Assembly (NCBI RefSeq): GCF_036971445.1
Contig: NC_091478.1
Location: 103,044,001 to 103,108,000, forward strand
Direction: 5' to 3'
Origin: Narcine bancroftii
Taxonomy: Eukaryota
Length of the DNA stretch: 64,000 bases
This document shows positions 13,817-61,500 of this stretch, piece by piece (position 1 is the stretch's first letter; each line of letters begins with the position of its first letter). Under the pieces are notes generated by a model. It ran no database searches. It saw nothing but the letters and a program-made list of their open reading frames with translations, and was not told the DNA's origin. The position numbers and the translations under genes are program-made.

Positions 13817-14271
13817 CTTCTTCTTTCTTTGGCTTGGCTTCGCGGACGAAGATTTATGGAGGGGGTAAAAAAGTCCACGTCAGCTGCAGGCTCGTTTGTG
13901 GCTGACCAGTCCGATGCGGGACAGGCAGACACGATTGCAGCGGTTGCAAGGGAAAATTGGTTGGTTGGGGTTGGGTGTTGGGTTTTTCCTCCTTTGCCTT
14001 TTGTCAGTGAGGTGGGCTCTGTGGTCTTCTTCAAAGGAGGTTGCTGCCCGCCGAACTGTGAGGCGCCAAGATGCACGGTTGGAGGCGTTATCAGCCCACT
14101 GGCGGTGGTCAATGTGGCAGGTGCCAAGAGATTTCTTTAGGCAGTCCTTGTACCTTTTCTTTGGTGCACCTCTGTCACGGTGGCCAGTGGAGAGCTCGCC
14201 ATATAATACGATCTTGGGAAGGCGATGGTCCTCCATTCTGGAGACGTGACCCATCCAGCGCAGCTCAGCGT
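13817..14271 (-). mobile_element. RTE-clade LINE, 5'-truncated young copy
   Basis: Open frame GHVSRMEDHRLPKIVLYGELSTGHRDRGAPKKRYKDCLK...CNRCNRVCLSRIGLVSHKRACS. 12-bp TSD CTCTGGGCCTGT (13805-13816, 14272-14283). Confidence 0.88.
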
Positions 14272-14499
14272 CTCTGGGCCTGTAACAATGTGAATAATGT
14301 TCTCACACTGAGTGAGAGACAGAACTTTCATTGTTGGAGACAGTTTTACACAAAGTTTTAAAAAAATAGTCCTCGACTTGCCTGTTCGCCCATCCGTCTC
14401 CTCACATCAATCTAAAGGCTTCTATTTGGACGTTGATATGAACAAGGAAGCCATGGGAACTCCTGATGCAGGAGCAAGCCTTGGGGAGACCCAGCCGGA

Positions 14500-14548
14500 G
14501 TTACCATGGCGACGGTCTCGTCGGCCCGGCGCCCGTTACCCCGGCGAC
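14500..14548 (-). promoter_or_regulatory. Two RFX X-box motifs
   Basis: Minus strand reads GTCGCC-AT-GGTAAC (14513-14500) and GTCGCC-GG-GGTAAC (14548-14535). Both fit GTNRCC-N(0-3)-RGYAAC exactly. Confidence 0.65.
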
Positions 14549-14745
14549 GCGTCGGCATCGCCGATGACGCACGATCCTCCCCTGCGGGGCAGCCCGCGAG
14601 CGGAAACGAGGAGCGGCCGGAAGTGGGCGGGGAGGCTTCCGCGGTGGCGCACAATTCGAGAAGCTTCGACGGGGAGGGCGCCCGCCTGGAACTGGAGGGA
14701 AGAGGCGGCGGATCGGGGCCCGGAGGAGAATCGGGAGCCGCGGCG

Positions 14746-15309
14746 ATGTTCCGGCCGATGAGGCAGGGCTTCCGCAGCCCGCCGCCCGTGGGCGCATCCC
14801 CGGGCCCGTTCCCCGGCGCGGGCCAGGCCGGAGGCGGCGCCTTCCCCTGGGGGGGGCCGGGCTGCGGGGGCCGGCAGCGTCCCTTCAAGTCCCCTCAGCG
14901 CCAAGCGCCGGGCCCGGGCCTGTCGCCCTTCCAGCAGCCGCGCTACCAGAGTCCGTCCCCCGGCGGCCACCCCCACCACCACCAGCCGCCGCAGAATTTC
15001 ACGCCCCGCCACCGCGGCCGCTACTCGTCGCCGCCCTATCAGCCGCCCTCGTCCGGCCAGGCCTCCCCGGGCTCGGGGCCCCGCCGCTACACCGGCTCGC
15101 CCCGGACGTCCACCCCGTTCGGCGGAGGAGGAGGAGGCTGCGGCCTGGACCGGAAGTCGCCGGCGCCCGTGGAGCAGTACTACAAGCCGTCCATGCTGCA
15201 GGACCCGTGGGCAGAGCTGCAGCCCGTGTCCGTGTCCGACATCGAGCGGCAGTACGGCAGCGGGCAAGCGGCCCCCAGCACCACCAAGAAAGGCAGGTAC
15301 TTCAGCTAG
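14746..15309 (+). CDS. MPLKIP: M-phase-specific PLK1-interacting protein (TTDN1), single coding exon
   Basis: Gly/Pro-rich N-terminus, then [32 protein letters not shown] and terminal KKGRYFS, matching the MPLKIP C-terminus (human [39 protein letters not shown]). ATG 14746 (187 aa) is preferred over the in-frame ATG 14506, which lies within an X-box. Confidence 0.92.
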   Translation: [187 protein letters not shown]

Positions 15310-18119
15310 CAGCGTCTGCAAGGCCCCCCCCCTCCCCCCCCACAGTGACCCACAACTTCCAGAGACCAGGACTTGTTTTTAAAAAGAAACTTGCATCTTT
15401 TTGGCAGATTGAATTTTGTAACGAGACCTATTTTTTTACCCCCCCCCCCCCCCCCCCCCGTCTGGTAGTTCCTCGGATAGCTGCACCTGCTCCAAATAAC
15501 TGTTCTTTACCAATCACTCACCAGCCAGTGGACAGAGACTCATTGTTTTGCAGGTATCCTCCACTTCTATGCATTTTACCCAACAGGTTTAAAACAAAAA
15601 TGCATCATCTAATTTTTTTTTTACAGTGAGCCACCGAAATGGTCATTTTTAAAACTTTTGTCGACTTTTTTAGATTCAAGGTGGAAGGGGAAAAAAAACT
15701 TCCAATGTTTAATATCTTTTTTTTAAGCAAATTCGAATTGTGCGTTGGTCAAACCGAAGGAAGGAAAGTGATTCGTGTATGATTTCCCGGTGAGATGTGT
15801 ATCTGGGGCAAGTGTGCAGTAAAGGTGTGGTGTGTTGGTATGACATCTGGTTTCATTTTTTTTCCTGGTAATTGTCGATAAGAACTTGAGCAAACTTATT
15901 TCCCTTTTCAAAACGACTTCTGGGTGTGTGCAAGCTCATTTGGCTTGTACTTCCAACAAAGCAAAGGTGGGGAAAATTTTTATTACAGTCGTGGACAAAT
16001 ACTTCTTGGCGACATGTTGGTCTAATTGTGACTTGCTACTTATAAAGTTTGCTTGATTTTTTTTTAAGATCAGCATGTGGAAATTATGCTCTTAATTCTC
16101 ATCAACCCTTGATCACCAATTGTTTCGATTTCCAAGCAGTTGGTGGCTGTGAAGAAATGTGTGCCTCTTGAGTGACAACCACTCTATTGGCACAGTCAGA
16201 AGGATGGTCCTGCCTAGATATCCTCACTTGGAGGAGTGAGGTGTGCTAGAATATTTGATAGGGTCATTATTGTGAACCTGGATCGTATGAAAGCACTTTT
16301 TCATGATGTCTTTGGATGATGAGGGTGACAACCCCCTTTCCTCATAATAATTGCTTTAGCTTCCAGCTGAAATTGATTTACATGAAAAGCAACCGTTCAA
16401 ATTCAGGAATGTGTCAGTGCATTATTTTTTTAATTTTGAAAAGAAGAGCTCCTTCCAAAAACATTTGAAGTGTTATTAAATTTGGAGTAGACATCTATGG
16501 TTGAACTTGGTGTTTGATGAAAGGAAATATGGATTCAATATATTTTTTATTCCTGAACATTGAAATAGGTAACCTTTCTGAATTGCCCTAGTTTGGCTGT
16601 TGAAACTGTCACAATTTTGAATGGGGGGGGGGGGGTAGAAGAAGAAACGGACAAAAGAGAAATGTGCATTCAGAATCAAAACGTGTTGTGGCCTCTTTTG
16701 TGTTTTAATTGTCAAACATTGTGTTGCTTATTTAGATTTTAGTCTTGCAGGAACAAAATTCTGTACATTTGTGCTTTCTACTGTGTTCTTGTCCTTCTTT
16801 AAACAGCACATCCTCTCATTTTAACTGCAGAAATCCTTTAGTAATATTAAAAAAAACTATGTCAATGACATGTTTCCTGTCTTGTAACACTCCAGTTATG
16901 TTCAAACTGGCCCTTCAGAAGACTTGAAGAAATTCAAAAAGTGCACGTGCTTTTATCCCTATGTGTTCTTTCTGTTTGGGTCAATTTAAAAGATGATTTA
17001 TCTACCCGAGAACAAAAATATTTTTTCCTTCTAAACTTCAAGAATACATCAAATAATTTTTTTTAATAGGCAGGAAAGCATGAAAGTTTGTTGACATAAC
17101 AAACATTTTCATTTTCTTTTTTGACTTGGAGGAATGGGGGGAAAATGTAGAATTGTGTGTTAGAAAGGTTGTGACAGTGTCTTCAACTTTGCTTAGATTG
17201 TAAGGAACATGAGCGATTGTTTGCTCATAGCAAGTGGTGATTGAGTAAACAAATGACCACCTTCATTATACATCAATAGCTAAAGGGAAGGTGTTAAAGT
17301 ACTTAAATGAATTCTTTTGCACACAATCCATCCTTGATAAAGAACTTCATCATGCAAGCTGAGCACTCCACTGAAACCAGACACAGTGTGTACTATTTAT
17401 ATTTGGAGTAAACGATGTTAAAATACAGTATAGCGGGCAGGCATACACTTGACCATTCAACTTCTTTATTTTAATATTTTGTGAGAAAATCTTACTTGTT
17501 GAATGACTAAAGGAAGATTCAGTAAAGATACTGAATTAATTACTGAAGTAATTAATATGTATTTAATTCAGGCACAAATTTCTTAAATGTATCTCGAGCA
17601 CAATTCATCAAAGAGAACACAAACTACCTCCATTAAGCATAAAAAAGATATTTTCCTCCTGAAATACTATTTGTTCTAAAGATTTTTGGCCAAGTATTTT
17701 GAAAACCTCAATGGTTATTGTCACATCCACAAAAATAATAAGAATTTTAACATCTATTAATCACCATCCGTTTGAGTATTTTCAATCTAATATGCAAAAT
17801 GGAAACATTTAAACAGCATCATCCGGACAGAGCAATAAATTTTATTGTTCACTATTTGATTAACAGAGCTAGAAATATGAAATAATCTCATTTGTTCAGA
17901 CTTGCAAGTGCTTCCATAGAAGTTTTAAGATTTGGGAATTTCCAGGTAGAACTATCACAAAATAAGTTTGATTCAAGTATTTAACGGAGAATTTTTTTTG
18001 CAATGTGTTCTACTCAGTCAGACCTAAATCCCAATTATTTCTCTTTCTAATGTTAGAAGTTACTTGTGTTCAAGTTTTTGAAATCTTGCCTTTTTTATTG
18101 ACATTTGTATATGATGTGA

Positions 18120-26190: not shown

Positions 26191-28499
26191 GGAAAAAAAA
26201 GTGAAGCGATGGAACAGCACCTGAGATTTATAACCTGGCAAGTACCAAGACGTCACTTCTTACATGAGCTGAAACTTCTAACCCTGAGCTGAAACCTCAA
26301 AAGGCGATGTATCAAACGGGTTTTTTTGTTGGAGTCGACTTGGATCGCAAGATTTTTCTTATTTCGACGTGACAGGCCCTTCTGGCTCACAAGCCCGTCC
26401 CCTGAACGTACGCGTAAGGGTGTGGAGGAACACCATGCAGACACGGGAGAACGTACAGGCACCGTGAAAAATTACGGAGAGGTTTTTTGTTTGGGCATCT
26501 CACTGAATTTGGGACTTGTTTCACACCATTTCTTAACAGGACAACAGATCCCAGTGCTCTTGATGGGATCTTGCCTTTATTTTTCAAAACACCGACCGCT
26601 TCTGAACGAGAATCCCACTGCAGTTTTATAGAGCGACATGGCAAAGCACGTTGTGATGGTTCGGATACCTGTCGAGCCGCACGTACACGCCGTGAATGGG
26701 TCCGTGGAGTGCTGTTCATTGGTTCCCCAGAAACTGGCGACGTCAGGAAACGTCGAGAGAGCAGCAGAGGTTGAGACCTCATCTGTTTGTGTGTGCGTCT
26801 GTCGCAGTCCCTCTCCCCGCACAGCCATCAACATTGTTTGCAAACGTGATTCCACTCACGATCCCATCGAGCGCCGCAGTGCCCGCGGCGGGCTCACAAA
26901 TCACGACCTCAATTCGAAATAAGCCCGGTTCCAAAAGATCAACCATCTTGATTGCTACTAGAATGGAAAGAGTACAGGTCAAAACAGCCGAGGAAAATCG
27001 TGATTGAACCTGGATTTCGCACACCAGAGGACTTGAGCCTGTGTGCACCACCCGTGGACCCAGCTGTTTTTCATCTGTGACATCGATGGCACATTCTCAC
27101 ATTCTAAACATTGATTAAGCAAATGATTGTTAAGGAGTTTTTGGTCAAAGGAAAATACAATCAGAAAGTTTTGCAGTTACTCAGAAGGGCGAGCAGCATC
27201 TGTAGAGTTTACTTTGAGGATTGATTGACATGGGGACTGAAAAGGGGGAGAGACGATCCATTTCTCTGCCATTTAATTAATACGTTATGCAGAGAGAGGG
27301 TGAAAGGTACGGCAACGACGGCGTCCAGATCTGATTGTGGTGTTTGGCCTTCCATGAGTACAGAGAAAGGCCCCATCATTTTCCAAGTGCTTGCATCATT
27401 CAGAAGCCTGATTATGATGGGAAATAAATGCCCGTGTCTCTGCCGCGCATCTTTACACTAGTGAAATTTCTTCCCTGCGGCCGGAGGATGAAAAGAGGGT
27501 AACTGGAATGGGATGAGACTTTCAAAATATTGGCCGCTTCTTCAGCGCAGCGGGGGTTTGCTTTGATGCTTTGAGCTGTGTTCACAACTCTGTAGTTTTA
27601 TTGATGGTCTTGGACAGAGCAGTTCCCAGACAGCAGATCGAAGTAGTAGGCCATTTGGCCCGTCAATCCTGCACCACATTTAACAAGATCACCCTTCAGC
27701 TGACTTTGAAATCATCTCGGCATTCCCACCTAACTCGAGTAGCGATTCACCATTGTTCATCAATGATCTTGTGGAGGTGAGTGCACGCCCACATCAGCCG
27801 TGATCTGACTGAATGCTCCACCGACCACACGGTGGATCTCTTCTCCCATTTCCTATGTTCTTAAAATACTCAAAGATTGCTTCCGCCACACTTTGTAGAA
27901 TAGTGCCAAAGATTCCAGACTTTGAGAGCAATAAATACCCCAATCGTAAATGGGCAGCCAATTATTGTTAAGCAGTGACCACCCCCCCCCCCCCCCCCCC
28001 CACCAAGTTCTGGATTCTTCCTCTCGGTTCAACCTCGGCAGACGGTCCAATCAGGAAAGATTGGTCAGGCTCAGGAAACCTTCCATGAACACATCACATT
28101 AAGGATATCCTTCGGACGGAAAGGACATAGATCCTCACACGTGTAATCAGTTCCTGAGTAATAACGTTCTATTGGATTTCCACCTGCATACTCAGTTTTT
28201 GGGATTGAGGCACCAGGTGCTTCTCCGTTTCACAGCACTACAACCTCTCACATTTAGATAGCATGCAGATACTGTTTCTTTCCCGACCAAAACGGACATT
28301 TAATCCCGTTTGCTAATATTTTTGCCCGTTCAATTTAATTGCATGTCCCCGTTTCCTCTCTTTTCATAAGGTGCTGGAAATACTCAGCAGGCCAGTCAGC
28401 GCCAGTGAGTGGAGAAACCGCTGACTGATGAAACGGAGCGTTAATTCTTTCTCTTTCCAGAGATGCACTTGGCCTGCTTTGTATTTCCACCAGCCCTTT

Positions 28500-28890
28500 T
28501 CAACCAAAGATAGTCCTCCAAGGCTACTGTAAATTAGAGGAACAACACCTTTTATTCCATATGGGCACTCACCAACCAGGCATTAACGTCGAGACTCCTC
28601 CGGCTGAATCCCCCCCCCTCTTTCCCCATCGTTTCACTTTCTTCCAACTCTCAGAGTGAACCCTTCTCTATCACTTCTCAGCTTTATTTTTCTCTTCTCC
28701 CCTCCCAACTGTATCCACTTCTTACTATGAGCCTGAGCTCCTCGCCGGTTCCTACCTCCAACCCCCTCTTTTTTATTCAGGCGCCTGTCTTTTTTTTCGC
28801 TCTTACTTTGAGAAGTGCTCAGGCCCGAAACGTTGGTTCTTCTATTTCCTGCAGATTCTGCTTGACCTGCTGAGTTTCTCCAGCACTCAA
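28500..28890 (+). mobile_element. Penelope-like element 3' end (GIY-YIG C-terminus, pyrimidine-rich UTR, hammerhead-like terminal repeat)
   Basis: 28531 onward translates KLEEQHLLFHMGTHQPGINVE, like the end of PLE GIY-YIG domains. It is followed by TTGAGAAGTGCTCAGGCCCGAAACGTT and the GACCTGCTGAGTTTCTCCAGCA tail. Confidence 0.6.
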
Positions 28891-29059
28891 TGCCTGCTGT
28901 TGACTTTCTGGTTTAACTCCTTCCATTTCTTGCCTGCCTCCCACCGCCCTGCACTCAAACACAATCCCCCTCACGCCCACCCGTCCACATCCAACCTGTT
29001 CCTGTTCATTGCACTGAACTCAACCAGAACTAACTCTCCTGTTCTTCATTGCAGCCAAT

Positions 29060-29658
29060 GCCCTTCCCCTTTCCCCCTTTTTCCTTCCCCCTCCCCCTTT
29101 CCCCCCCTCCTCCCCCTTTCCCCCCTCCTCCCCCTCCCCCTTTCCCCCCCTCCTCCCCCTTTCCCCCCTCCTCCCCCTCCCCCTTTCCCCCCCTCCTCCC
29201 CCTTCCCCCCCTCCTCCCCCTTTCCCCCCCTCCTCCCCCTTTCCCCCCCTCCTCCCCCTTTCCCCCCCTCCTCCCCCTTTCCCCCCCTCCTCCCCCTTTC
29301 CCCCCCTCCTCCCCCTTTCCCCCCCTCCTCCCCCTTTCCCCCCCTCCTCCCCCTTTCCCCCCCTCCTCCCCCTTTCCCCCCCTCCTCCCCCTTTCCCCCC
29401 CTCCTCCCCCTTTCCCCCCCTCCTCCCCCTTTCCCCCCCTCCTCCCCCTTTCCCCCCCTCCTCCCCCTTTCCCCCCCTCCTCCCCCTTTCCCCCCCTCCT
29501 CCCCCTTTCCTCCCCTTTCCCCCTCTCCTCCCCTTTCCCCCTCTCCTCCCCTTTCCCCCCCTCCCCCCTTTCCCCCCCTCCTCCCTTTCCTCCCCTCCTC
29601 CCTTTCCTCCCCTCCTCCCCTTTCCCCCCCTCCCCCCTTTCCTCCCCTTCCCCTTCCC
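29060..29658. repeat. Pure polypyrimidine/polypurine minisatellite, about 19-bp unit TTTCCCCCCCTCCTCCCCC
   Basis: About 600 bp of only C/T on the plus strand, directly visible. Confidence 0.97.
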
Positions 29659-30051
29659 AGTAATGAAACATTGTGTTTTGGCAACCCGTCCTCTTGATAT
29701 TATTGCTTCAATGCAAGCGATAATTTGTGGTCGCCACGGGGTTAAAGAGGGGCTGCCTGATGTATTTGCACCGACATTTAGCGCTTTAAATTTGAAAACA
29801 AGCCCTCCCTTCTCCCCCTGTCCTGTCACATGTCTTCTTTGGTTTGTCTATAATCCGCGTCACACCTCTTTGAGCCCAGATCTTTCGGGATTGTTCAGTG
29901 TATTCCGTTGTAACGGAGGCGTCTATCGGAACGGAAACAGCAATGAGGTGGTTTTAGAGTCTTTCCTCCCCGGGTCTTGCGCGGTGACTCGTCTCCTGCA
30001 GCTCATTCCGTCTTTGCTCGACTTGACTGTCTGTCCGTCCGTCCGTCCGTC

Positions 30052-34819: not shown

Positions 34820-37800
34820 TCTTTTTTTTAAAACTTCATTTATATAAAAAAATAAAAACATAACAAACAGTAGAGAAATAAAGAAAAATTTCCATTAACA
34901 CCCATCCCACCCTCCCATCCCTACAGCCAACTCCCTTAAGGGGAACAAAAAAAATTATTAAAAAAAATATATATATATATAAAAAGAAAATATAAATGTT
35001 AATAACATTTCAAAGTATATCTAAATGTGTATATTTCAAATACAGAGACCACTTACTAACAAAAAAAATAATTATCATGTAAATTATAAGTAATTTTTTT
35101 TCAATTCATTATGCCAATGTGCTATATTAATCTCAGTATCATCTTTCCAAGTACTAGCAACACATTTATGCGCTACTGATAACACCAAACGTACAAAAGC
35201 AATTTGAATTTTATCCAATCCCATTCCCCTTAACGAATACAAATTTCCCAACAAGAAAATCATTGGTAATATAAAATTATATAAAATTATATAATTTCTC
35301 CAAAACTACTTTAATTCCTTGCCAAAATGATTGAACTTTAACACAATTCCAAACAGCATGTAGAAAAGTTCCAATACATGAGCCATATCTAAAACAAGAG
35401 TCCGAATTACTAAACCCATTTTTTTTTAACTTTTCCGGGTTTAAATATAATTGATGTGAAAAATTATAATTAACCATTCCCTATCTCAATTTAATTACAT
35501 TGTCCTGACACATATTTGCCCAATCATCTTCAGGAAAAATAAATACTAAATCACTCTCCCATTTAAGTTTAGATTTCTCCCAATCTGTCTTATCCATACT
35601 ATCTTGTAACAAATTATACATAACTAAAATATAACCCTTTTCCGGTATAGAGGATATCAAAGATTCAAATCTCAACAAAGTAGGTAAAATCATCTCTCTA
35701 CCATAATTATCTTTTATCCAAGCTCTAAGTTGATAATACGCAAACAAAGAATTTACAGGTATATCAAATCTTTCTCTCAATTGATTAAAAGAAAGAAATT
35801 GCCCCGCTACAAAACAATCTTGTATTGTCTTTATACCTTTAGAATCCCAAATCTTTAAATGGTTATTAAACATTGAAAAATGTTTAATACAATGGAGTTA
35901 AAATTGATAATTTATCTTTTGACCCTAACACCCTGTTTTTTTTTAATCCAGATCTTTAACAAATGTTTCAATATCGGCATATCATATTGCTGTAACAAAA
36001 TCAAATTCCAACGGAATATAAATTAATGTATTTCAACCCTAGATATACACGGTATTTCCACTTTAGCCCAGCTGGGAGGCTGATCTAAATCCATCAATCT
36101 ACTAATAAACTTCAACTGGGCCGCTACATAATAATTTTGAAAATGTGGTAATTGTAGTCTGCCCAATGTATACTTCCATGTAATGCCATTCGGGTTAATT
36201 TACCTTTCCATAAAATCTCTTGCACTGCTTTATTCAAATCTTGAAAAAAGCCCTTAGAAAGTAAACAAGATAGTGACTGAAATAAATATTGAATTTGAGG
36301 AAAAATATTCATTTTAATACAATTAACCCGATCAACCAAAGTTAATGGAAGATCTTTCCACTTAATCAAATCTGCTTCAATCCGTCTTAATATAGGTACA
36401 TAATTTAACTGATATAATGATTGATAATTTGAATCCATAAATACACCTAAATATTTAATTTTACTTGTCCACTTTAATTTTGTAATTGTTTTAAATTCAG
36501 AATAATCTCCCACTCCAACTGGTGAAATTTCACTTTTATCACAATTAACTTTATATCCCGACAGTTCTTCAAATTTCAGTAAACACTCTTGCAATTGTTC
36601 CAACGACCATTTCGGTTCCGTCAAATATCAACACATCGTCCGCAAATGAGTTAATTTTATATTCTTCATTCTTAACCCTCATCCCTCTAATTTCCTCATT
36701 TTGTCTAATAGCCTGAGCCTGGTTCAATAACCAATGCAAATAAGGCTGGTGACAACGGGCAGCCCTGTCGAGTTGAACGAGTCAATTTAAATGGTAAAGA
36801 AATCATTTGTCACCACCCTAGCAATTGGGTTCGTATATAAAGCCTTAACCCAACCAATAAAAGAAGGGCGAAATTTAAATTTCTCTTAACACTTTCTGCA
36901 TCTAATGGTTAGGCTGCTTTCGATATGTGTTGACCAAAGTAATTAATCAAAATATATTATTTGATGCATTTCTATTCTTAATAAAACCTGTTTGATCAAT
37001 ATGTACCAATTTGTACAATGACAGTTATAGCACTTGAACATGATTCTGGTAACTTCTGATCTTCAGTAACTTGATTCAACACTTCTCCAAATACAGTAGA
37101 AAGATCATCATAAAAATTTTTATAAAATTCCACAGGGAATCCATCATCCCCTGGGGACTTTCCATTAGGCATCTCCTGAATAACTTCCTTAATTTCAAAA
37201 TCCAGAAATGAAAATTCCAATTCCTGAACCTCATTTCCATCTAATACCGGTAACTTTAATTTAGATAAGTAAGAATCAATAGAACCATTATCCTGTTTCC
37301 CCTCAGAGTACATAATTTTAAATAAAATGAATAAAACTGGTCATTAATTTCCTGAGGTTTGTAAGTAACTTTTGAATTCTTCTTAACACCATTAATAATC
37401 CGAGATGTCTGTTCAGCTTCAATTGCCAAGCAAGTACCTTATGAGCTCTTTTCCCCAACTCATAATAACATTGTTTAGATCAATTAATTAAGTGCTCAAA
37501 CTGATAAGTTTGTAAAGTATTATAACGTAATTTCAACCTCGCTCATGCAACTTGTTTTAATCTTCTGTTACCTCTTTCTGAAAATCTTTCCCTATCTCAG
37601 CAATCTTATTTTCTAACTCTAAACTTTCTGCCATGTATTGTTTCTTAATTTTCATAGAAAAACTAATAATCTGCCCCTTCAAATATGTTTTGAAAGCATC
37701 CCATATTACAAAATGACTATCCACAGACAACATTCTCGGTCAAAAATAAAGAGATATGTTCTTTAACAAAAGTAACAAACTCTGGCTTTTTCAATAACAT

Positions 37801-40624
37801 TGCATTAAACTTTCATCTAAGCGATGGACTTTCACAAGAAAAAAGTAATAATGAATGATCTGAAATAACTCTACTTTTATATTCAGCTCTTAATACTCTA
37901 CCTTATAAATGTGCTGATACCAAAACTAAATCAATTCTAGAAAATGAATCATGTCATGAAGAATAAAAAGAAAAATCTTTCTCTGTAGGATTAACTTTTC
38001 TCCAAATATCCACCAAATTTAAATCTTTCATTAACGCATTAATTTGTGTTGCCATCTTTGATTTCCTTATACTTTTTGGATTTCTATCCAATAAAGGGTC
38101 CAAAACACAGTTAAAGTCACCACCAACTAAAACATTTTCATTAGCTTGAGTTAACAATAAAAAAAACTTCTGAAATAAACCACACATCATCTATATTAAG
38201 GGCATAAAGATTCAACAGAGTCCAAGATTCAGCAAAAAATTTACAGTTCACTCTTAATACTCTGCCAGCAGACCCCTCTGAAGATTCCAATTCAAATGGT
38301 AATTTTTTATGAATCAAAATCGCTATTCCTCTTGCCTTAGAATTAAAAAAAGAAAAAAGATGACCAACCCAATCTCTTTTCAATTTCAAATGTTCTTTTT
38401 CAGTCAAATGTGTTTCTTGTTAAAAAAAAGCAATATCAATTTTCATTTTTTTAATATAAACCAATATTCTCTTTCTCTTAATTGGATTATTTAATCCCTG
38501 AACATTAAAAGTTGCAAAATTCAATTTAAACATCTTTTTAAACTACTAATATATTTACACACTATAAAATAATGCTCCCCTCTATAATTCTTCCAAGAAA
38601 AATAAAACCCCTCAAAAAAAACCAGAAAAAAAAACACCCAAAGGTAGTAATACCCTAGAAATCTGGGTCTGGTAAACCAACTAGCGGCAGATGACTATCA
38701 AAGTTTTCAGTGTCATCCACCCCCCCCCACCCCCAGCCAGATATCTATTTATTATTTAATCAAACACAATATAATATAGTCGATATATTCAGCCCAATGA
38801 TTCCAAGCCCAACGACTACTCCGGATCTTCAACATCAAGAAGACTTTGTGTCAACTCTTCTTTCTTTCCATAGTTTCCATTCCTATTTCCATTTACCCTC
38901 CTCTTAGGAGACAACGGAGGAGAAAACCCATTTCTTTGCAATTCTGGCAAAGAATTAGCAAAAACCAAAGCATCATGATCATTCTCAAAAAATTGAGATT
39001 GAAAATTTCCATAGAAAACCTTCAAAATTGCAGGATAATGAAAAGCAAACTTGTAGCCTTTTCGCCACAAAACATCTTTGGCCGTATTAAATTCTCATCG
39101 TCTTCTAATAACCTCTTGGCTTAAATCGGCATAAAAGACCACTCTGTTATTTTGAACCATTAATAGAGATCGATTTTGCCGTGTGTTCTGTACTGCCATA
39201 CATAAAATCATTTCTCTATCTTGATATTTTAAACAACAAACCAAGACTGCTCTCGGTGTTTGCCCTGGAAGTGGTTTTCTTCTCAGAGTTCTGTGAGCCC
39301 TATCCAGTTCCAAACCTTCAGGAAAAAGCTCTTTACCCAGCACCTCTGGGATCCAGTACTTAAAAAATTTTATATGGTCAGCACCTTCAATGTCCTCTGG
39401 AAGATCAACTATTTTCACATTTTTCCTCTGATTTTGATTTTCCAACAAATCAATTTTCTTCATTAAATCTCTTTTTTGAATACCCCCAATCTACAAAAGA
39501 ACCTTCCACTTTTTCCATTTTTTCTCTATTATGTTTTACCTGAGTTTGACACTCAGAAAAGGCTGTTTCAATTTTCTTAAAATTATCTTGCACAGCATCA
39601 ACTGATTTTATACATCTATTAATATCACTTTTAACAACAGTCATTTCCTGTTTCACAGTTCTCTATTACGTTCTACCTGAGTTTGACACTCAGAAAAGAC
39701 TGTTTCAATTTTCTTAAAATTATCTTGCACCGCATCAACTGATTTTATACATCTATTAATATCACTTTTAACTGTTTCACAGTTGACATTTCATTACACA
39801 AGGTATTCATTTTTATCTCCATAAATCCTTGATTCACTTGAGTTGATATTTGTTTTGACAAGCAATTCCTTTCAAAACAGTAAACACTGAATCCATTCCA
39901 GATTCCACTTCCTCTTTTTGAGATCCACCTCCTTTAACTACAGGCTCCTCCTCCTGGATGAATTCCAATAAGATAAGTTCCTCTTCTTCTTCAGTCATCA
40001 TAGGTTCTTTGGCTGAATGACTGCGGGTCTGAACACCCGACGCCGGCACCCCGACCTCTTCGGGATGCCGGCGTTTGGGCTCCCCGTCAGCCCACACTTT
40101 ATCCAGCAGTTTTCGGACCCGCAATGCCCCATGTAGGCCAGGCAAAGCCGTCAGATGCACAGGAGCGTCCTCTGATGCTACACTGTGTGCCATTGGGCCA
40201 CCCAGCGAGGTCGCGTGTCCCCTTATCGGCCGTGCCGCCTGCGTGCACGACTTCACGTGAACGCGGGTCGGCAATGGCTGAGCTCACCAATGTGTCGGCG
40301 CCATCTTGTGGGGGCAGGATCGGCACCAGAGTCAGACTCCAATGGGCTGGAGTCCTCTGAGGCTTGGAAACTCCCAACGACGACTCCGTGGATTCAGCTA
40401 TGCAGGTAGGCCTCAATTCTTCCGCACTTTTATCTGGTAGTTTTTTCTGAAGCTGAGGTTTAAATTTTTTCACATTGGATGCCATCATAAATCACTTATT
40501 TAAACAACTGTAGATATTATTTTTAACCACTTTTATGCTTTTTAAAAACCGGGTATTTAGTGATCCAGCTGGGGAAAAGTGGAATACACGACTTTCTTCT
40601 ACGCCATCTTGTCACGCCCCCACC
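34820..40624 (-). mobile_element. Full-length decayed L1-clade LINE (ORF1, APE endonuclease, RT, Cys domain)
   Basis: ORF1 LENQNQRKNVKIVDLPE...ELDRAHR, EN NSKARGIAIL / VLVGGDFNCVLDP, RT MPNGKSPGDDGFPVEFYK / IKYLGV. 5' end GGGGGCGTGACAAGATGGCG and an A-rich tail. 13-bp TSD TTGACTCTTATTT (34807-34819, 40625-40637). Many stops and frameshifts. Confidence 0.93.
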
Positions 40625-46329: not shown

Positions 46330-46710
46330 GATTTTTTAGATCTATTGTCAGAATACATACCCTGAGATTCTTTTTCCTGCAGGCAAGGCAAAATTACCAT
46401 TTATTGGTTGTGCAAAAAAAACTATACTCAACATGCACTGTATACAAATAAAGAAATGTAAACAAACTGTGCAATACAAAGAGAAAACAAATCAATAAAG
46501 TGGACAAATAAGAGTCCTTAAATGAGTCCCTGATTGAGTTTGTCATTGAGGAGTCTGATGGTGGAGGGGGAGTTCCTGAACCTGGTGGTATGAGTTTTGT
46601 GGCACCTACATCTCCTTCCTAATGGCAACAGCAAGGACAGACCATGTGGGTGGTGTGGATTCTTAACGATTGCTCCTTCTCTCTGATGGCAGCATTCCTT
46701 GCAGATATTC
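46330..46710 (-). mobile_element. Rex1-type LINE fragment, 3' part (split by L1 insertion)
   Basis: Continues the frame of 49132-49431 across the L1 TSD (AAIREKEQSLRIHTTH, a decayed IVKDPHHP region). Confidence 0.7.
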
Positions 46711-49131
46711 TTTTTTTTTTAATTTTTTTATTTTTCACACCATAAATCACATTAGCCATGATATACACTATTTCTTTTTCACACATATACAGTGACTTTT
46801 TCTCCCCCCCCCCCTTTCCTCCCAAACCACCCCCCCACCCCCCCCTCTCATCCATTTTAGGTATACAATCTAGGTTGCATTAAGCCAGTCAGACAATGTT
46901 GTCATTCAACAAAATTACACCAGAAATTCTACTGAGTCCATTCTTTTCTTTCCTTCTCCTTCCATCAACTTAGGTAATGTTTGTCCCCGGTAGGTTTTCG
47001 CTATTGTATTTAATGTAAGGCTCCTATACTTGTTCGAATATTTCAATATTATTTCTTAACCAATATATTATTTTTTCTAATGGAATACATTTATTCATTT
47101 AAATTTGGTAGTTTCTTCCTTTTAATTTGGTTATGTATTCCATTAATATTTAAAGACATATAGTTCAGCGAGGCCCTTTTATATTTTGTTTATCTTCTCT
47201 TTCCGTTTTTCCATCATTACCTTTCCTCCTTTTCCATTTCTGTTTTCTTATTTTCAACTCTTTATAAGACAACATTCCTACAACATCTAACATTTTCCTT
47301 ATTCTCCTATTTCTATCTTCTTTATCCCCAATCTCCCCTTCCCCTCCTGAGTTGTCCTTTATCCCTTGTCGGACAACCACATCTCCCCTCTCCATTTGGA
47401 TTTGCGAATCCACTCGCAAGCATCAACTGATTTTGCAGTGACCGCTATTTCCCCCCACCCCACCTCCCCCAGAAAAGATTTCACTTTTCATATGTCACAA
47501 AGGTCACTCTTTTAATTCCCTCCTTATTCTCTCTATTCCATTACCTTCCCTTATTAATTCTTGTCTATACTATCTATATTTTCCTCTAAGTACAGATATA
47601 TTCATGTATGCTCATTGTCTCTATTCACTCTTATACCTCTTTACCCGCATACATATCAATCGTGATCATTTTTACTCTCATTACCCGTCTTCATCCCTCA
47701 GTCTATTTTTGTCTTTACCCACATACATATCAATCGTGATCATTTTAACTCTCATTACCCGTCTTCCTCCCTCAGTCTATTTTTGTAATTGTTCTGCAAA
47801 TTTTCGTGCTTCTTCTGGATCCGAGAATAGTCTGTTTTGTTGTCCTGGAATAAATATTTTCAATACCGCTGGATGCTTTAGTATAAATTTATACCCTTTC
47901 TTCCATAAAATCGCCTTTGCTGTATTGAACTCTTTTCTCTTCTTTAGGAGTTCAAAACTTATATCTGGATAAATGAAGATTTTTTGCCCTTTATACTCCA
48001 GTGGTTTGTTGCCCTCTCTTACTTTTTCCATTGTCTTCTCCAGTACCTTTTCTCTTGTAGTATATCTTAGGAATTTTACTACAATAGATCTTGGTTTTTG
48101 TTGTGGTTGTGGTTTAGAGGCCAATACTCTATGTGCCCTTTCTATTTCCATTTCATGCTGTAGTTCTGGACATCCTAGGGTCTTAGGGATCCACTCTTTT
48201 ATAAACTCCCTCATATTCTTGCCTTCTTCATCTTCCTTAAGGCCCACTATCTTTATGTTATTTCTTCTGTTATGGTTTTCCATTGTATCTATTTTTTGAG
48301 CTAGTAGTTCTTGTGTCTCTTTAGTTTTTTTATTAGATTTCTCCAATTTCTTTTTTAAGTCTTCTACCTCCATTTCTGCTGCTACTGCCCGCTCTTCCAT
48401 CTTGTCCATTTTTTTTCCCATTTCTGTTAAGGTCATCTCCATTTTATTTATTTTCTCTTCTGTGTTGTTTATTCTTTTTCTTAAATCCTTAAATTCCTGT
48501 GTTTGCCATTCTTTAAATGACTCCATGTATCCTTTAATAAGAGCAAGTATATCCTTTACCTTGCCTATCTTTTCTTCTTCTATTTCACCATACTCTTCCT
48601 CTTCTTCTTCCTCTGGGTTGACCATCTGTTGTTTCTTTGTTGCCCTTTCCTCCTCTTCTTTCTTGTTTCTATTGTCTTCTGTGGTCTCTTCTGGCTGGGT
48701 GTTCTGCAGCTGTCGTTGCCGGCTGTGGAGATCGACTCCCCAGCTGGTCCCCCCGCCCGTCGGTGTGTTTTTTTTCATTCGCATCGCGCACGCGCGAAGT
48801 ATCGCGCATGCGCGGTTGCGCACTTTTACTCGGCTCAGCGAGCCATTTTTGTAGTCCATTATTTACCGACCTGAGGGAGCGGGTTTCTCTCTCCGCAGCG
48901 GGCCTCTTCGGACAGGTAAGGCCTTCACCTTTTTCCTCCTTTGTCTTCTCTTCCTCTCTTCTTGCCGTTGCTTTCGATTTTTCTTTTTTTGTCGCCATCT
49001 TCTTTCCACCTTTATACTCACTTTTCTGTAACTTTTATTTCTGTGCCTTTGTGTTTTCTCTTGTTTTTCTCGACTTTTCTGGAGAGGGCTGGAGTTCACC
49101 GTCTGGCCACTACTCCATCACGTCAAGCTTC
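46711..49131 (-). mobile_element. ORF1-only, internally deleted L1-type element (HAL1-like)
   Basis: 5'UTR, intact ORF1, spacer, about 25 codons of ORF2 start fused at about 47100 to the last 40 or so codons, 3'UTR and poly(A). TSD core CCTTGCAGATATTC (46697-46710, 49132-49145). Confidence 0.88.
47777..48859 (-). CDS. L1 ORF1p (coiled coil, RRM, CTD), intact, 360 aa
   Basis: Heptad coiled coil, MENHNRRNNIKIVGLKE, MEIERAHR, PRSIVVKFLRY, IFIYPDISFELLKKRKEF, KHPAVLKI; no stops. Confidence 0.92.
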   Translation of the reverse strand: MDYKNGSLSRVKVRNRACAILRACAMRMKKNTPTGGGTSWGVDLHSRQRQLQNTQPEETTEDNRNKKEEEERATKKQQMVNPEEEEEEEYGEIEEEKIGKVKDILALIKGYMESFKEWQTQEFKDLRKRINNTEEKINKMEMTLTEMGKKMDKMEERAVAAEMEVEDLKKKLEKSNKKTKETQELLAQKIDTMENHNRRNNIKIVGLKEDEEGKNMREFIKEWIPKTLGCPELQHEMEIERAHRVLASKPQPQQKPRSIVVKFLRYTTREKVLEKTMEKVREGNKPLEYKGQKIFIYPDISFELLKKRKEFNTAKAILWKKGYKFILKHPAVLKIFIPGQQNRLFSDPEEARKFAEQLQK

Positions 49132-49431
49132 CCTTGCAGATATTCTTGAGGTGAGAAGGGTTTCGTCTGTGATGTCCTGGGCTGTGTCCACTATGTTTTG
49201 CAAGGCTTTCTGTCCAGAGGCATTTGTGTCCCCATACTAGATTGTGATGCAGCTGGTCAGCACATTTTCCGCCACACCTCTGTGGAAATTTGCCAGGGTT
49301 TCCGATGCCATTCCAAACCTCCCCAAACTCCTGAGGAAGTAGAGGAGCTGATGTGCTTTCTTCATGATGCCATTAATGAGTTGGGTCCAGGAAAGATCGT
49401 CTGAGATAGTGATTCCCAAGAACTTATTCAA
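49132..49431 (-). mobile_element. Rex1-type LINE fragment, 5' part
   Basis: KFLGITISDDLSWTQLINGIMKKAHQLLYFLRSLGRFGM...LTSCITI. Confidence 0.82.
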
Positions 49432-55532: not shown

Positions 55533-56730
55533 TTGTTGGAGGGATCCCTGTTGGAGGGTGCCCCGTTGGAGGGGTGCCCCTTTGGAGGGTGACCCGTTGG
55601 AGGGGTGCCCCGATGGAGAGTGCCCCGTTGGAGAGTGCCCCGTTGGAGGGGTGCCCTGTTGGAGGGGTGCCCGTTGGAGGGTGTCCCGTTTGAGGGGTGC
55701 CCGTTGGAGGGTGCCCCGTTGGAGGGTGCCCCGTTGGAGGGGTGCCCCGTTGGAGGGTGCCCTGTTGGAGGGGTGCCCGTTGGAGGGGTGCCACGTTGGA
55801 GGGTGCCCCGTTTGGAGGGATCCCCGTTGGAGGGTGCCCCGTTGGAGGGGTGCCCATTGGAGGGTGCCCATTGGAGGGTGCCCCGTTGGAGGGGTGCCCC
55901 GTTGGAGGGTGCCCCGTTGGAGAGTGCCCCGTTGGAGGGTGCCCCGTTGGAGGGTGCCCCGTTGGAGGGTGCCCCGTTTGAGGGGTGCCCCGTTGGAGGG
56001 TGCCCCGTTGGAGGGGTGCCCCGTTGGAGAGTGCCCCGTTTGAGGGGTGCCCCGTTGGAGGGTGCCCCGTTGGAGGGTGCCCCGTTGGAGGGGTGCCCCG
56101 TTGGAGGGATCCCCGTTGGAGGGGTGCCCGTTGGAGGGTGCCCCGTTGGAGGGGTGCCCCGTTGGAGAGTGCCCTGTTGGAGGGTGCCCTGTTGGAGGGG
56201 TGCCCGTTGGAGGGTGTCCCGTTTGAGGGATCCCCGTTGGAGGGATCCCCGTTTGAGGGGTGCCCCGTTGGAGGGATCCCCGTTGGAGGGGTGCCCGTTG
56301 GAGGGTGCCCCGTTGGAGGGGTGCCCCGTTGGAGAGTGCCCCGTTGGAGGGGTGCCCCGTTGGAGGGGTGCCCGTTGGAGGGTGCCCCGTTGGAGGGATC
56401 CCCGTTGGAGGGGTGCCCGTTGGAGGGTGCCCCGTTTGAGGGGTGCCCGTTGGAGGGTGCCCCGTTGGAGGGGTGCCCCGTTGGAGAGGTGCCCCGTTGG
56501 AGGGATCCCCGTTGGAGGGGTGCCCGTTGGAGGGTGCCCCGTTGGAGGGGTGCCCCGTTGGAGAGTGCCCCGTTGGAGGGTGCCCTGTTGGAGGGGTGCC
56601 CGTTGGAGGGTGTCCCGTTTGAGGGATCCCCGTTGGAGGGATCCCCGTTTGAGGGGTGCCCCGTTGGAGGGATCCCCGTTGGAGGGGTGCCCGTTGGAGG
56701 GTGCCCCGTTGGAGGGATCCCCGTTGGAAG
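55533..56730. repeat. G-rich minisatellite, 15-16-bp unit GTTGGAG(G)GGTGCCCC, about 1.2 kb
   Basis: Directly visible tandem array with variant units (GGGATCCCC, GAGAGTGCCCC, GTTTGAGG). Ends about 120 bp before the TMEM67 ATG. Confidence 0.97.
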
Positions 56731-56849
56731 GGCTTCCCTCCGGACCCGCCTGCAGGGGCGGAGAAGGGGCCGAGCCTGTGGGCCGGTGCGTGTTGACGCT
56801 GCCCCAGGAGACGGCTGATACACGGATCGGGTCCCGCGGACTCTGCAAC

Positions 56850-57021
56850 ATGCTGGCGGCGGCCGCCGCGCTGTTCGCCCTGGCCCGGCTGTCCGTGGGA
56901 CAGGGCGCCGACACCTCGCTGCCCTTCGCCGAGCCGCAGTCGTGCCCCGGCGACCACTTCTACGATGCGTCCGCCCTGCAGTGTTGGCCGTGCGGCGCGG
57001 CCCGCCGGCGGAGCGCTGACG
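56850..57021 (+). CDS. TMEM67: Meckelin, coding exon 1
   Basis: Signal peptide MLAAAAALFALARLSVGQG followed by SLPFAEPQSCPGDHFYDASALQCWPCGAARRRSADG, matching the start of the meckelin Cys-rich domain (human [36 protein letters not shown]). GTAAG donor at 57022, phase 1. Lies in a CpG island. Confidence 0.9.
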
Positions 57022-57262
57022 GTAAGAAGCCGGCCGGAGCTGCCGGGGCTCCTCCCTGTCCCCGCACTCCCTTCAGGGGAGGGGGGATGCGCGGTGGCGG
57101 GGTCCTGTGCAGCCCCGAACGGAGAGAGCGGGTCGGCTCAGCTCGGACCTTGACGGAGCCATGATCCGCTGGACCAGACTGCGAGCTGAAGCCGGACCCA
57201 AGCTGGCCCCTTGTGCCCAGTGGTCGCCCTCATGTCTCTGTGTGGCTTCTGAAATAACGAAA

Positions 57263-57615
57263 GCCCCTTTCACACTTGCCTGGGACCCCAGGAATCAAAC
57301 GCCAATCGGCCTTTGAAGCAGCAAGTGTGAAAGCAAAATCTGCTCAACGCCCCTCACTCCAGACATTGCCCGCCGGACCCCCAGCACAATCCCCCGCATC
57401 TGCAGACTCCAGCGTTGAGATCAGGCAAGTGTGAGACGGGCAATGGCATTGCAGGCACTTCCAACTGAAGGCAGAACAGACCAAAGTCCGGGGATACACC
57501 CTTGGAAGAGTAAAAGTGTCCCGGCTAGGGGTGCTCCAGTGTGAAAGGCCAAACCCCCTTTCCTATCCTGGGACACTGAACGGCCAATTGACTGGGGTGC
57601 AAGTGTGAGAGGGGC
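57263..57615. mobile_element. Putative PIF/Harbinger-like MITE
   Basis: TIRs GCCCCTTTCACACTTGC / GCAAGTGTGAGAGGGGC flanked by AAA on both sides. Internal copies of GCAAGTGTGA; further TTTCACACTTGCC copies at about 57738 and 57826. Confidence 0.55.
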
Positions 57616-58599
57616 AAATAACAGAAGAGAGTTTACTCACTGAGATACCGTTCACCAGTCTCATAAGGGTTTATCCCCCCGCCCCAGTGTTTGTCTGTTC
57701 TACCTTGAATCGAAGTGCCTGCAATGCAATTGCCCGTTTCACACTTGCCTGATGTCAACGCTTTGTACTAGGGGTCAAGGGCAGCAATCCCTGGTGTGAG
57801 ATGCCAGCGTTGAACAGATTTTCCTTTCACACTTGCCACTTTAAAGGCCTATTCCTGGGATGGTAGTGATCAGCCATGATCTGTAAAATGACGGTGCTGG
57901 CTCGACGGGCCGAAGGGCCTACTCCAGCTCCTATTGTCTATTGAAAGGGGGCTATGTGTGCCCCCCTGTGGGGGGGCACGACAGTATGTGCTTTCAAGAT
58001 GGGGTGAATGCCCAGTTAGCGCCCCACTCACAAGGCAACTTGAAACAATACGGCCTGGTCAGCAGGCTCCTAAATCAACCTCCCTACCTTGGAGGTCGTC
58101 AGGGAACCCAGTTAAACTTACCAAGGTCTCGTGCACCAGCGGCTTGAAAATGAAAATGGCTTGCTTGTGTGTCGCCGGGCAGCTTGTTGGTGTCAAGTTC
58201 AAAAGTAGAGGAGGAACTCAGCAGAGCAGGTCAGGAAAGGGGATATTATAATGTGGTTTAAACGTGCCTCTCAGGAAGAGTAAGGTTAAAATCTTTTACT
58301 TCATTTCATCCGGTGAGTGGGTGGCGCATCACTCACCGCGTCATCACGGGAGCGATTCTTCCTGCAGGTTAAAAGGTGCTGGGAGCACCTTCGACCCATT
58401 AAACGCACCTGGGTCCCAGGAGGGCTACCTAGGAGCGGCAGTTTAAAAGTGCCTAGTGAGAAGGGTGTATTCTTACGCAATTACTAAATAGTTCACACTA
58501 TCCTGACTCTATAACATCCCTCCTTCTCAAGATAAAGAAAAAAATACTGGTCTTTATCACTTTCTTTCCAGTGCAACTTAAGTAACTGAACTAGTTTAT

Positions 58600-61500
58600 T
58601 TACACAATTATTTTTAAATAGTTCACACTGGCAGCAGTATGTTGCTTCACCATTTTGTGGATTTGGCTGCGACCGTTGGGCTCTGTGTTGCTGGTCCACG
58701 TGAAGGTGATGTAGTTTGTGGTGCTTTACCTGACAACTGCTGTGTTGATGTTTCGGTATTAGTGGTTGTAGTCTCTTCACTTGATACCTCACTTGCTATT
58801 GGTTTTGTGGGCTTTGCTGGTATTAAAGCTTTCTGCATCATCACATCTTGTGTATGCAGGATGTGAATTCTGTTCCTCCTTAGCTGATCGCCAGAGTCTG
58901 CCTTGACAATGTATGATTTTGATGTCTCAGCTTCTCTGATGACCTTTGCTGGGGTCCATGTTTTCAACATTGGCTCTTGAATATGCATGTGGTGCCCTCT
59001 GAAGAGTTCTGGCAGTGTTTGTGCATGTTTGTTATAACGCTGGCATCCTTGCGTGTCAGCCAGTCTTCTTCTGCCTTCCTCCTAGAATTCTGGAGGGTGT
59101 ATTTTTTTAATATATAATTTTTTTATTTTTCACACTGTGAACCATGTCAACCAAAATACAAACATTTCCCTCTTAAATATACACAGTGCCATTTTCTCCC
59201 CTTTTTTCCCCCCTACCTTCCCTCCCCCCCCTTCCCACCCCCCTCCAAAACCAATAAACGTTCAACATATACAATACAATAAAACCATGAAACAATGTCA
59301 TCACACAATGAAAAAATAAACAAGAAAAATGTGTCATCTACTTTTACACACTGGATCAGTTCATTTCGTCTTCTTCTCATTCTACCATTTTAGGGGGTGG
59401 TGATCTGCGGTAGACCCTCTCTGTTGTGTTCCATGTACGGTTCCCAAATTTGTTCAAATAATGTGACTATTTTTTTAATTATATGTTATTTTTTCCAATG
59501 GAAACATTTATTCATTTCCATGTATCATTGCTGTACTCTCAGGCTCTCTTCTGATTTCCAAGTTGACATTGTATATTTTTTTGCTACAGTAAAATCTCTT
59601 GCACTTCATCCAGTTTGAGGCCTAATTCCTTTCTTCTTGTATTACTTAGAAGAAAGATCTCTGGATTTTTTGGTATGTTGTTTTTTGTGATTTTATTTAA
59701 TACCTGATTGAGATCTTCCCAAAACTTTCTCACTTTCTCACATGCCCAAATTGCAGGTACTGTTGTTCCCATTTCCTTCTTACAGCGAAAACATCTATCT
59801 GATAATGTTGGATCCCATTTTTTTAACTTTTGGGGCGTGATATATAACCTGTGTAACCAATTATACTGCATCATGCGTAACCTTGTGTTTATTGTATTCT
59901 TCATAGTTCCAGAACATAACTTTTCCCATGTTTCATTTTTTATCTTTATGTTTAAATCTTTTTCCCACTTTTGTTTGGGTTTATAGCTTATTTCATCATT
60001 TTCCTTCTCTTGCAGCTTAATGTACATGTTCGTTATACATCTTTTAATTATCATTGTGCCTGTAATCATTTATTCAAAGCTGCTTCCTTCTGGTAACCTC
60101 AGCCTGTTTCCCAATTTATTCTTGAAGAAGGCTTTCAGTTGATGGTATGCAAACATTGTACCATGAGAAGGGTGTCTTTTTCTTGGCAGAATTGTTTTAT
60201 ATCTCCTGCCATTTTGAAGTTCTGCCAGGGACTTCATGTCAGCCCTTAAATGTGTTGCTCGTAAGGATAGAAGAGCCAGGTCTGGGTCTTCTCTTGTTTC
60301 ACAACACTTAACAAGAGTGCATTTCACAGTTTGCACTTGTCTTTCAAAGAACCCATGACCTTTGGGGTACTATGGGGACGATGTAGTGATAATAAACCCA
60401 TACTCTGCAGCCAGCTTTCTGAATTCTTCTGACGTGAACTGTGTTCCATTGTCACATATTACTTGAACAAGGTTGTTCAGCAAGGAGCACTCTCTGAGGT
60501 GATAGTTGACACTCTCAGGTCTTTCACCCTTTTGACGAATGGAAACAGAGTAGTAACAGGCGACAATTAAATGCCATTCTTGATTCTCGATGAACAAGTC
60601 CGCTCCCACTGTGTGCCATATCCTGGAAGGTACTTCAGTGGAAATAATTTTGTTGTGAGTTTCTGTACTTTTGGCATATTTGACATGTAGCCACCATATT
60701 TTTGATTTCTTTGTTTAAATCAGTCCAGTACATGGCTGACTTTGCACTGAGTTTGCATTTCTCCATTCCCATGTGACCTTTATGTATTTTCTGGAGAATC
60801 TTTTTCTGCATTGTTTCAGGTATCATCAGTTTTGATCAAGCCAGCCGAACACCATTCTCCAACGATATGTCATCTCTTATAGAGCAATATTGACACAATG
60901 AAGACTGTATCTGCTTTATCTTCTTGGGCCATCCTTGTATTACTTGTTGAGAAAGCCTTCTTACTGTTTTCTTCTCTGATCTGGTTTAATTTATTACTGG
61001 TCACACTGACGAGATGATGCATCTTGATCCCCGTGTCTACCATTTCATCTTTTTCATTCGGGGAAAGTCGTGACAAGGTATCAGCAAGCACCATCTCTTT
61101 GCCTGGTATGTATTTTAAGTCAAAGTCGTAGAAGTAATCTCTGCAGTCTTGCTGGTGCCTTGTTTAGGTTCTTTCTCTGGATGTTTTCCAGTGGGCGATA
61201 ATCACTTTCCACTATAATCTTTCTTCCATTCAAAAACTTGTGAAACTTTTTGCATCCATATACGACTGCCAACAGCTCTGTCTCAATATTGGCATATCTG
61301 GTCTCCACTGTTGTTAGTGCTTTTGAGGCAAAAGTATTGGTTTTCCTTCTTGCACTAAAGCTGCACCAAGGCCTCTTGGATGCATCTATTTGCAGAGTGG
61401 AGGGCTTTTTCTCTATCATAGTATTTCAACTCCACTTTTCTGCATATTATTTATTGAGCTGGTCAAAACTTCTCTGATGTGATAGTGACCACTGAAATTC

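What the first reader, a model, noticed from the sequence alone, without database searches (positions are those of the whole stretch)
46711..49131. ORF1-only 'half-L1' element: intact ORF1, ORF2 collapsed to a two-end remnant
Seen: a 2.4-kb TSD-flanked, poly(A)-tailed element with an uninterrupted 360-aa ORF1. After the spacer, the ORF2 start (LNYMSLNINGIHNQIKRKKL, with AGG where the start ATG is expected) is joined at about 47100 directly to the ORF2 end (MNKCIPLEKIIY..NNIEIFEQV). The independent L1 copy at about 59420-59525 has the same terminal sequence but continues into the Cys domain, confirming internally that EN and RT are missing here. Known: HAL1 elements are non-autonomous L1 derivatives encoding only ORF1. 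Inference: a clean ORF1 beside a mutated ORF2 remnant suggests the deleted form itself replicates, borrowing ORF2p in trans, as a young non-autonomous family.
Basis: partly seen in the sequence, partly recalled or inferred. Interest (0 to 1): 0.72.

Follow-up and report, generated by a model that had tools for sequence, protein, structure and literature searches.

The report
Half-L1 family trading ORF1 with helper
This is a broken copy from a family of about 3,500 jumping genes that lost their copying enzyme but kept their RNA-packaging gene; they likely borrow the enzyme from complete LINE-1 elements in the same genome and likely swap short pieces of the packaging gene with them.

Summary
Real HAL1-type family. 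The ORF2 deletion junction (47100/47099) occurs 1,232 times exactly and 3,520 times within two mismatches. 71 of 82 sampled copies have their own target-site duplication. The parent is a 6-kb L1 with an open 1,265-aa ORF2; the deletion removes 3,590 bp. One correction: family ORF1 is 407 aa from ATG 48998, and this copy is frameshifted at 48697, so the '360-aa ORF1' is a hybrid frame. Copies form one ladder-like lineage with very young tips. ORF1 stayed open along it (0 breaks against 3-7 expected), but amino-acid dN/dS is about 1. New here: 11 of 18 changes the half-L1 gained in ORF1 codons 101-200 also appear in the young complete L1, against 0 of 39 elsewhere. 34 complete L1s carry a half-L1-type tract. 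Recombination is likely; convergence is not excluded. HAL1 is a known kind, and this scan noted such elements in this genome before, mostly without copy counts.

The parts
46697..46712 (.). target-site duplication, 3' copy (16 bp)
   Evidence: identical to 49132-49147
46713..46740 (-). A-rich tail with poly(A) signal
   Evidence: sequence; same 3' end in sister copies
46741..46969 (-). L1 3' UTR with G-rich tract
   Evidence: 93% to the parent L1 3' end
46970..47099 (-). last 130 nt of ORF2, out of frame with the 5' remnant
   Evidence: matches parent ORF2 end, L106 6124-6253
47099..47100 (-). junction of the 3,590-bp ORF2 deletion (1-nt microhomology; no GT-AG ends)
   Evidence: 1,232 exact and 3,520 near-exact copies
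47100..47177 (-). first 78 nt of ORF2, start ATG changed to AGG
   Evidence: AGG context in 81 of 82 younger copies (1 truncated there); ATG kept in 1 of 40 older copies
47178..47776 (-). inter-ORF spacer, with a 74-75 bp tandem duplication at 47638-47786 that the parent also has
47777..48998 (-). ORF1 (407 aa in the family; frameshifted in this copy by a 2-nt loss at about 48697)
   Evidence: residues 195-401 of an intact sister match human L1 ORF1p chains, E 9e-13
48554..48679 (-). ORF1 codons 108-149, the tract shared between half-L1 and complete L1 subfamilies
48785..48814 (-). two CGCGCATGCGCG-type palindromes in ORF1 codons ~62-71, a deletion hotspot
   Evidence: 18-bp loss in 8 and 31-bp loss in 7 of 99 copies, scattered on the tree
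48999..49131 (-). short 5' UTR (~130 nt); first 8 nt not of family type
49132..49147 (.). target-site duplication, 5' copy (16 bp)

Best explanation
The element is a frameshifted copy of a young family of about 3,500 ORF1-only L1 derivatives that share one 3,590-bp ORF2 deletion; the family likely spreads by coating its own RNA with its own ORF1 protein and borrowing ORF2 protein from the complete 6-kb L1 in the same genome, and the two likely exchange short ORF1 tracts. Shown: one shared junction, many independent insertions, one clade, successive subfamilies with very young tips, the same target-site profile as the complete L1, an open ORF1 along the source lineage, and ORF1 mosaics. Inferred: transcription from the retained 5' end, need for ORF1p in cis, ORF2p supplied in trans, and template switching or conversion as the cause of the mosaics.
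For: Junction counts 1,232 exact and 3,520 within 2 mismatches, control 0; older variant 1,783. Distinct TSDs in 71 of 82 and 32 of 40 copies; 68 of 82 and 30 of 40 full length. Parent with an open 1,265-aa EN-RT-zf ORF2 in 7 of 20 loci and ORF2 of at least 1,260 aa in 17 of 40. 98 of 98 half-L1 copies form one clade; divergence from group mode falls from about 0.7% to 0.10%. TSD median 16 vs 15 bp, and T at -2, A at 0 and +1 in both (n = 82 and 39). No ORF1-breaking change on the trunk against 3.1-6.6 expected, P 0.001-0.047. Shared derived changes 11 of 18 in codons 101-200 vs 0 of 39 elsewhere, p 1.7e-7, about 0.5 expected by chance. 25 of 25 painted loci (of 34) are complete-type L1 with a half-L1 tract. 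In cells, ORF1mneoI RNA is mobilised in trans by ORF2p and needs functional ORF1p (PMC11260458, passages).
Against: Trunk dN/dS is about 1 (43 N to 11 S; neutral ratio 3.63), so there is no amino-acid-level purifying signal. The open-frame test weakens to P 0.047 when 1-nt indels are left out. All full-length samples come from the start of contig C1 and were chosen by exact junction match. Expression, polymorphism and mobility were not shown. The exchanged tract is A/G-rich and low in complexity, its one shared synonymous change sits at a CpG, and some shared changes (codons 184, 187) are flanked closely by unshared ones, as convergence could also give.
Confidence: 0.85

Rival explanations
1. 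ORF1 is a passenger. The family spreads because it is short and keeps the promoter, and the frame is still open only because the family is young.
For: Trunk dN/dS about 1; weakest open-frame test P 0.047; ORF1 broken in 20 of 68 younger and 23 of 30 older copies.
Against: No supported clade shares a break; the recurring 31-bp loss is scattered on the tree and the same frameshifted reading shows in complete L1s (L093, L110). Expected trunk breaks 3-7, seen 0. The ORF2 remnant lost its ATG early.
Confidence: 0.15
2. The shared ORF1 changes are convergent: both lineages face the same host pressure or mutation hotspots and reach the same residues without exchange.
For: 10 of the 11 shared changes alter residues; the synonymous one is at a CpG; codons 184 and 187 are shared while 188 is not.
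Against: The change from the sister L1 haplotype needs about five substitutions plus a 6-nt length change, all matching the half-L1. L094 differs from a half-L1 by 1-3 nt in codons 108-149 and from its sister L102 by 6, with the reverse outside the tract (34 and 70 against 7 and 5). A lost codon and a synonymous state are regained in the L098 type. Clustering permutation p 1.5e-5 to 2e-4 for three triplets chosen after inspection.
Confidence: 0.2
3. The copies come from segmental duplication or assembly error, or the junction is a splice product made afresh from complete L1 RNA each time.
For: A different deletion family shows a run of 8 copies about 17 kb apart, so DNA-level duplication does occur in this assembly.
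Against: 71 of 71 detected TSDs differ; the deleted segment has no GT-AG ends; half-L1 copies share many states absent from all sampled complete L1s and form their own clade.
Confidence: 0.01

Closest known systems
HAL1 (half-L1) of mammals, especially rat RNHAL1 (Smit 1999; Bao and Jurka 2010, not held; seen only through passages of PMC5753468, PMC2241872, PMC5786205, PMC8535693, PMC13756887)
   Same: Non-autonomous L1 derivative made by ORF2 deletion, encodes only ORF1, keeps both ends, thousands of copies, close to the active L1 (rat: about 7,500 copies, 5' part 98% identical to active L1; PMC2241872 passage); repeated origin (a second deletion family of 60 copies here).
   Different: The passages read describe HAL1 only in mammals; this genome is non-mammalian by earlier notes (electric ray; not tested here). 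It descends from this genome's own L1, so it is an independent origin. Exchange of ORF1 tracts with the helper was not in the passages or listings seen.
Recombinant mouse L1 families (PMC3600994, passages)
   Same: Transfer of ORF1 coiled-coil segments between L1 families, attributed partly to template switching between families active at the same time.
   Different: There both partners are autonomous families and tracts are long; here one partner lacks ORF2 and tracts are about 50-130 nt.
HeT-A and Ag-Sponge, ORF1-present bipartite non-autonomous LINEs (PMC5786205 passage)
   Same: ORF1-only partner of an autonomous LINE.
   Different: Jockey and CR1 clades, not L1.

Membership tests
HAL1-type element | Derived from L1, ORF2 largely deleted | tested here: met
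   3,590 of 3,798 nt of ORF2 missing relative to complete copies
HAL1-type element | Encodes an L1 ORF1 protein | tested here: met
   407-aa ORF1 open in 48 of 68 full-length younger copies; match to human ORF1p chains E 9e-13. Broken in the window copy.
HAL1-type element | Deleted form is multicopy and retrotransposed as a unit (TSD, A-tail) | tested here: met
HAL1-type element | A related autonomous L1 is present to supply ORF2p | tested here: met
   both ORFs open in 8 of 40 sampled loci; same target-site profile
HAL1-type element | ORF1 maintained by selection in the source lineage | tested here: inconclusive
   open frame kept, P 0.001-0.047; dN/dS about 1
HAL1-type element | Mobilised in trans by ORF2p | not testable with these tools
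   inferred from anatomy and from ORF1mneoI assays (PMC11260458 passages)
Mammalian HAL1 families (descent) | Common ancestry with a named mammalian HAL1 | tested here: not met
   nests among this genome's own L1 copies, about 5% from them
Catalogued Repbase/Dfam family | Entry with this junction | not testable with these tools
   no repeat library on hand

The most novel reading that the evidence does not exclude
The half-L1 is more than a parasite: it is a second ORF1 lineage from which the active complete L1 has repeatedly recruited new ORF1 segments (first a tract that restored a lost codon, then the newest half-L1 tract, now in a spreading 34-copy autonomous group), while taking segments back. 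Helper and passenger share one evolving ORF1 pool.
Probability: 0.5. Interest if true: 0.72.

Novelty: new member of a known kind. Interest (0 to 1): 0.52.

Why it matters
It turns single-copy guesses into a counted, ordered family with its helper still intact, probably outside mammals. A young lineage with the deletion scar, its ancestor and an active helper side by side lets one test directly whether ORF1 is needed in cis for trans-mobilisation. The ORF1 mosaics suggest that non-autonomous elements can feed new sequence back into the active L1, which bears on why the L1 ORF1 N-terminal region changes so fast.

Tried and rejected
Splice origin of the junction: rejected, no GT-AG ends on either strand. 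The 31-bp ORF1 loss as an inherited null allele: rejected, scattered on the tree. Purifying selection by dN/dS: not found. Positive selection on the helper's N-terminus: 36 N to 5 S, not significant against the corrected neutral ratio (p 0.18). Pfam gave only weak ORF1 hits (E 0.02-0.03); the PDB search and the Atlas identified it. Public runs: no RNA holder listed. Four runs laid as contigs covered the element but no listed piece bridged the junction, so expression and presence in other organisms stay open. Bao and Jurka 2010 is not held. Literature searches listed no paper on a non-mammalian HAL1 or on HAL1-helper ORF1 exchange; only listings and selected passages were seen, and subscription papers and Repbase reports are not searched. 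L131 (433-bp deletion) was dropped from the tree; codons 59-70 and the 3' G-tract were masked in the shared-change test.

Full report
Observation. The element lies on the minus strand at 46713-49131 between two identical 16-bp TSD copies. It interrupts an older RT-like 3' end whose frame runs on at both flanks. After the spacer, 78 nt of the ORF2 start (AGG for ATG at 47177) join the last 130 nt of ORF2 at 47100/47099. The L1 at 59360-60150 runs on into the Cys region but is another subfamily, 78% identical to the parent. The '360-aa ORF1' is wrong. The family and the parent start ORF1 at 48998 and give 407 aa; this copy lost 2 nt at about 48697. It is a dead copy.

Family. A 38-nt junction pattern occurs 1,232 times exactly and 3,520 times within two mismatches in the 3.33-Gb genome; the backward control gives 0. 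An older variant with the parental base near the junction occurs 1,783 times. I fetched the first 82 of the 1,232 matches, all on contig C1: 68 are full length, 48 of those 68 have an open ORF1, and 71 of 82 have a TSD of at least 10 bp, all different. Of the first 40 of the 1,783 older matches, 30 are full length, 7 of 30 have an open ORF1, 32 have TSDs, and one keeps the ORF2 ATG (48 of 68 vs 7 of 30, p 2e-5). The first 37 full-length younger copies differ by 1.1% on average.

Parent and helper. Degenerate ORF2-start patterns that run past the junction occur 10,812 times, the youngest type 2,635 times. These are 6-kb L1s; 7 of 20 loci have an open 1,265-aa ORF2 with endonuclease, RT and zinc-binding domains. 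In 40 more, 17 have ORF2 of at least 1,260 aa and 8 have both ORFs open. The deletion is 3,590 bp with a 1-nt microhomology and no splice ends. Target sites match: TSD median 16 (n = 82) and 15 (n = 39), T at -2 in 76% and 74%, A at 0 in 85% and 92%.

History. In a tree of 98 half-L1 copies (L131 dropped) and 16 complete L1s, the half-L1s form one clade (support 0.84) next to older complete copies, in a ladder. Divergence from the group mode falls from about 0.7% to 0.10%, and two copies are identical over the 5' arm, so copying is recent. The order is: deletion, loss of the ORF2 ATG, then the later junction-side change.

Is ORF1 needed? Terminal branches carry 65 breaks; the trunk carries none, against 3.1-6.6 expected (P 0.047-0.001, depending on the clock and on whether 22 single-base indels count). 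The recurring 31-bp loss sits at two palindromes, is scattered on the tree, and so is not inherited. Amino acids are not held still: trunk 43 N to 11 S against a neutral 3.63. I recall that Bao and Jurka reported faster ORF1 evolution in HAL1; I could not read the paper. In cells, an ORF1-only L1 RNA is mobilised by ORF2p in trans and needs functional ORF1p (PMC11260458, passages). The mechanism is therefore likely ORF1p in cis and ORF2p in trans; this is inferred.

ORF1 exchange. Of changes gained by the half-L1 after its oldest group, 11 of 18 in codons 101-200 also occur in young complete L1s, against 0 of 39 elsewhere (p 1.7e-7; about 0.5 expected). A 48-nt pattern finds 34 loci; all 25 painted continue into ORF2, carry helper states at nearly all of 79 diagnostic sites and half-L1 states at codons 129-138, and 22 have an open 407-aa ORF1. 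L094 differs from young half-L1s by 1-3 nt in codons 108-149 and from its sister L102 by 6; outside the tract the pattern reverses. An earlier helper group regained a lost codon in a tract matching mid-age half-L1s. Of 30 loci painted from 568 with the newest motif, 26 were half-L1 and 4 helper; no third lineage appeared. Six of the younger half-L1 copies carry three or more helper-type or ancestral states, some in blocks, so transfer may run both ways. Against: the tract is low in complexity, the one synonymous shared change is at a CpG, and the triplets were chosen after inspection. Direction is inferred from the stepwise rise of these states in the half-L1. The tract lies before the part that matches solved ORF1p chains (residues 195-401); its place relative to the coiled coil was not tested.

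Known systems. HAL1 is described as an ORF1-only L1 derivative with several origins in mammals (PMC5753468, PMC2241872, PMC13756887, PMC8535693, PMC5786205, PMC4859970; passages; PMC3342881, a table passage). ORF1 segment transfer among autonomous mouse L1 families is known (PMC3600994, passages), and exchange between autonomous and non-autonomous LTR elements is discussed for wheat (PMC9744471, passages). Eight searches listed nothing on a non-mammalian HAL1 or on HAL1-helper ORF1 exchange; coverage is partial. The Atlas places ORF1 among chordate L1 ORF1 clusters. The host as an electric ray comes from earlier notes and was not tested. Those notes, 8 shown of 17, already report half-L1 elements in this genome, one with a swapped 5' half.

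Verdict. A real, young HAL1-type family: a new member of a known kind. The counted lineage and the likely ORF1 exchange with its helper lift it above routine. Interest 0.52.

Noticed in passing
L225, L226, L257 (G000:C1): A second, independent ORF2-deletion family: about 3.2 kb removed in frame, leaving an open 193-aa mini-ORF2 with its ATG; 60 junction matches within 2 mismatches.
   Followed up: partly
G000:C1:384067113-384187936: Eight copies of the second deletion junction spaced about 17 kb apart, probably inside a tandem array.
   Followed up: no
window 48785-48814: Two CGCGCATGCGCG-type palindromes inside ORF1; they resemble the NRF1 site (recalled, untested) and may be part of an internal promoter, since the 5' UTR is only about 130 nt.
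   Followed up: partly
window 35096-39466: An old, broken, near-complete L1 of a distant family (ORF1 42%, ORF2 36-50% aa to the young L1).
   Followed up: no
window 59100-60260: 5'-truncated L1 of an older subfamily, inserted in what reads like an LTR-retroelement pol region (by eye).
   Followed up: partly
L022, L027, L065, L104: Another L1 or half-L1 begins right at the 3' end of a copy (head-to-tail neighbours).
   Followed up: no
L031-L070, L091-L110, L111-L150, L181-L260: Target sites of both families favour C-A-T-Y before AA, not the T-rich run recalled for human L1.
   Followed up: partly
window 56001-58000, 14001-16000, 28001-30000: GC-rich stretches (64%, 58%, 55%) in a window of 30-48% GC elsewhere; not examined.
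   Followed up: no
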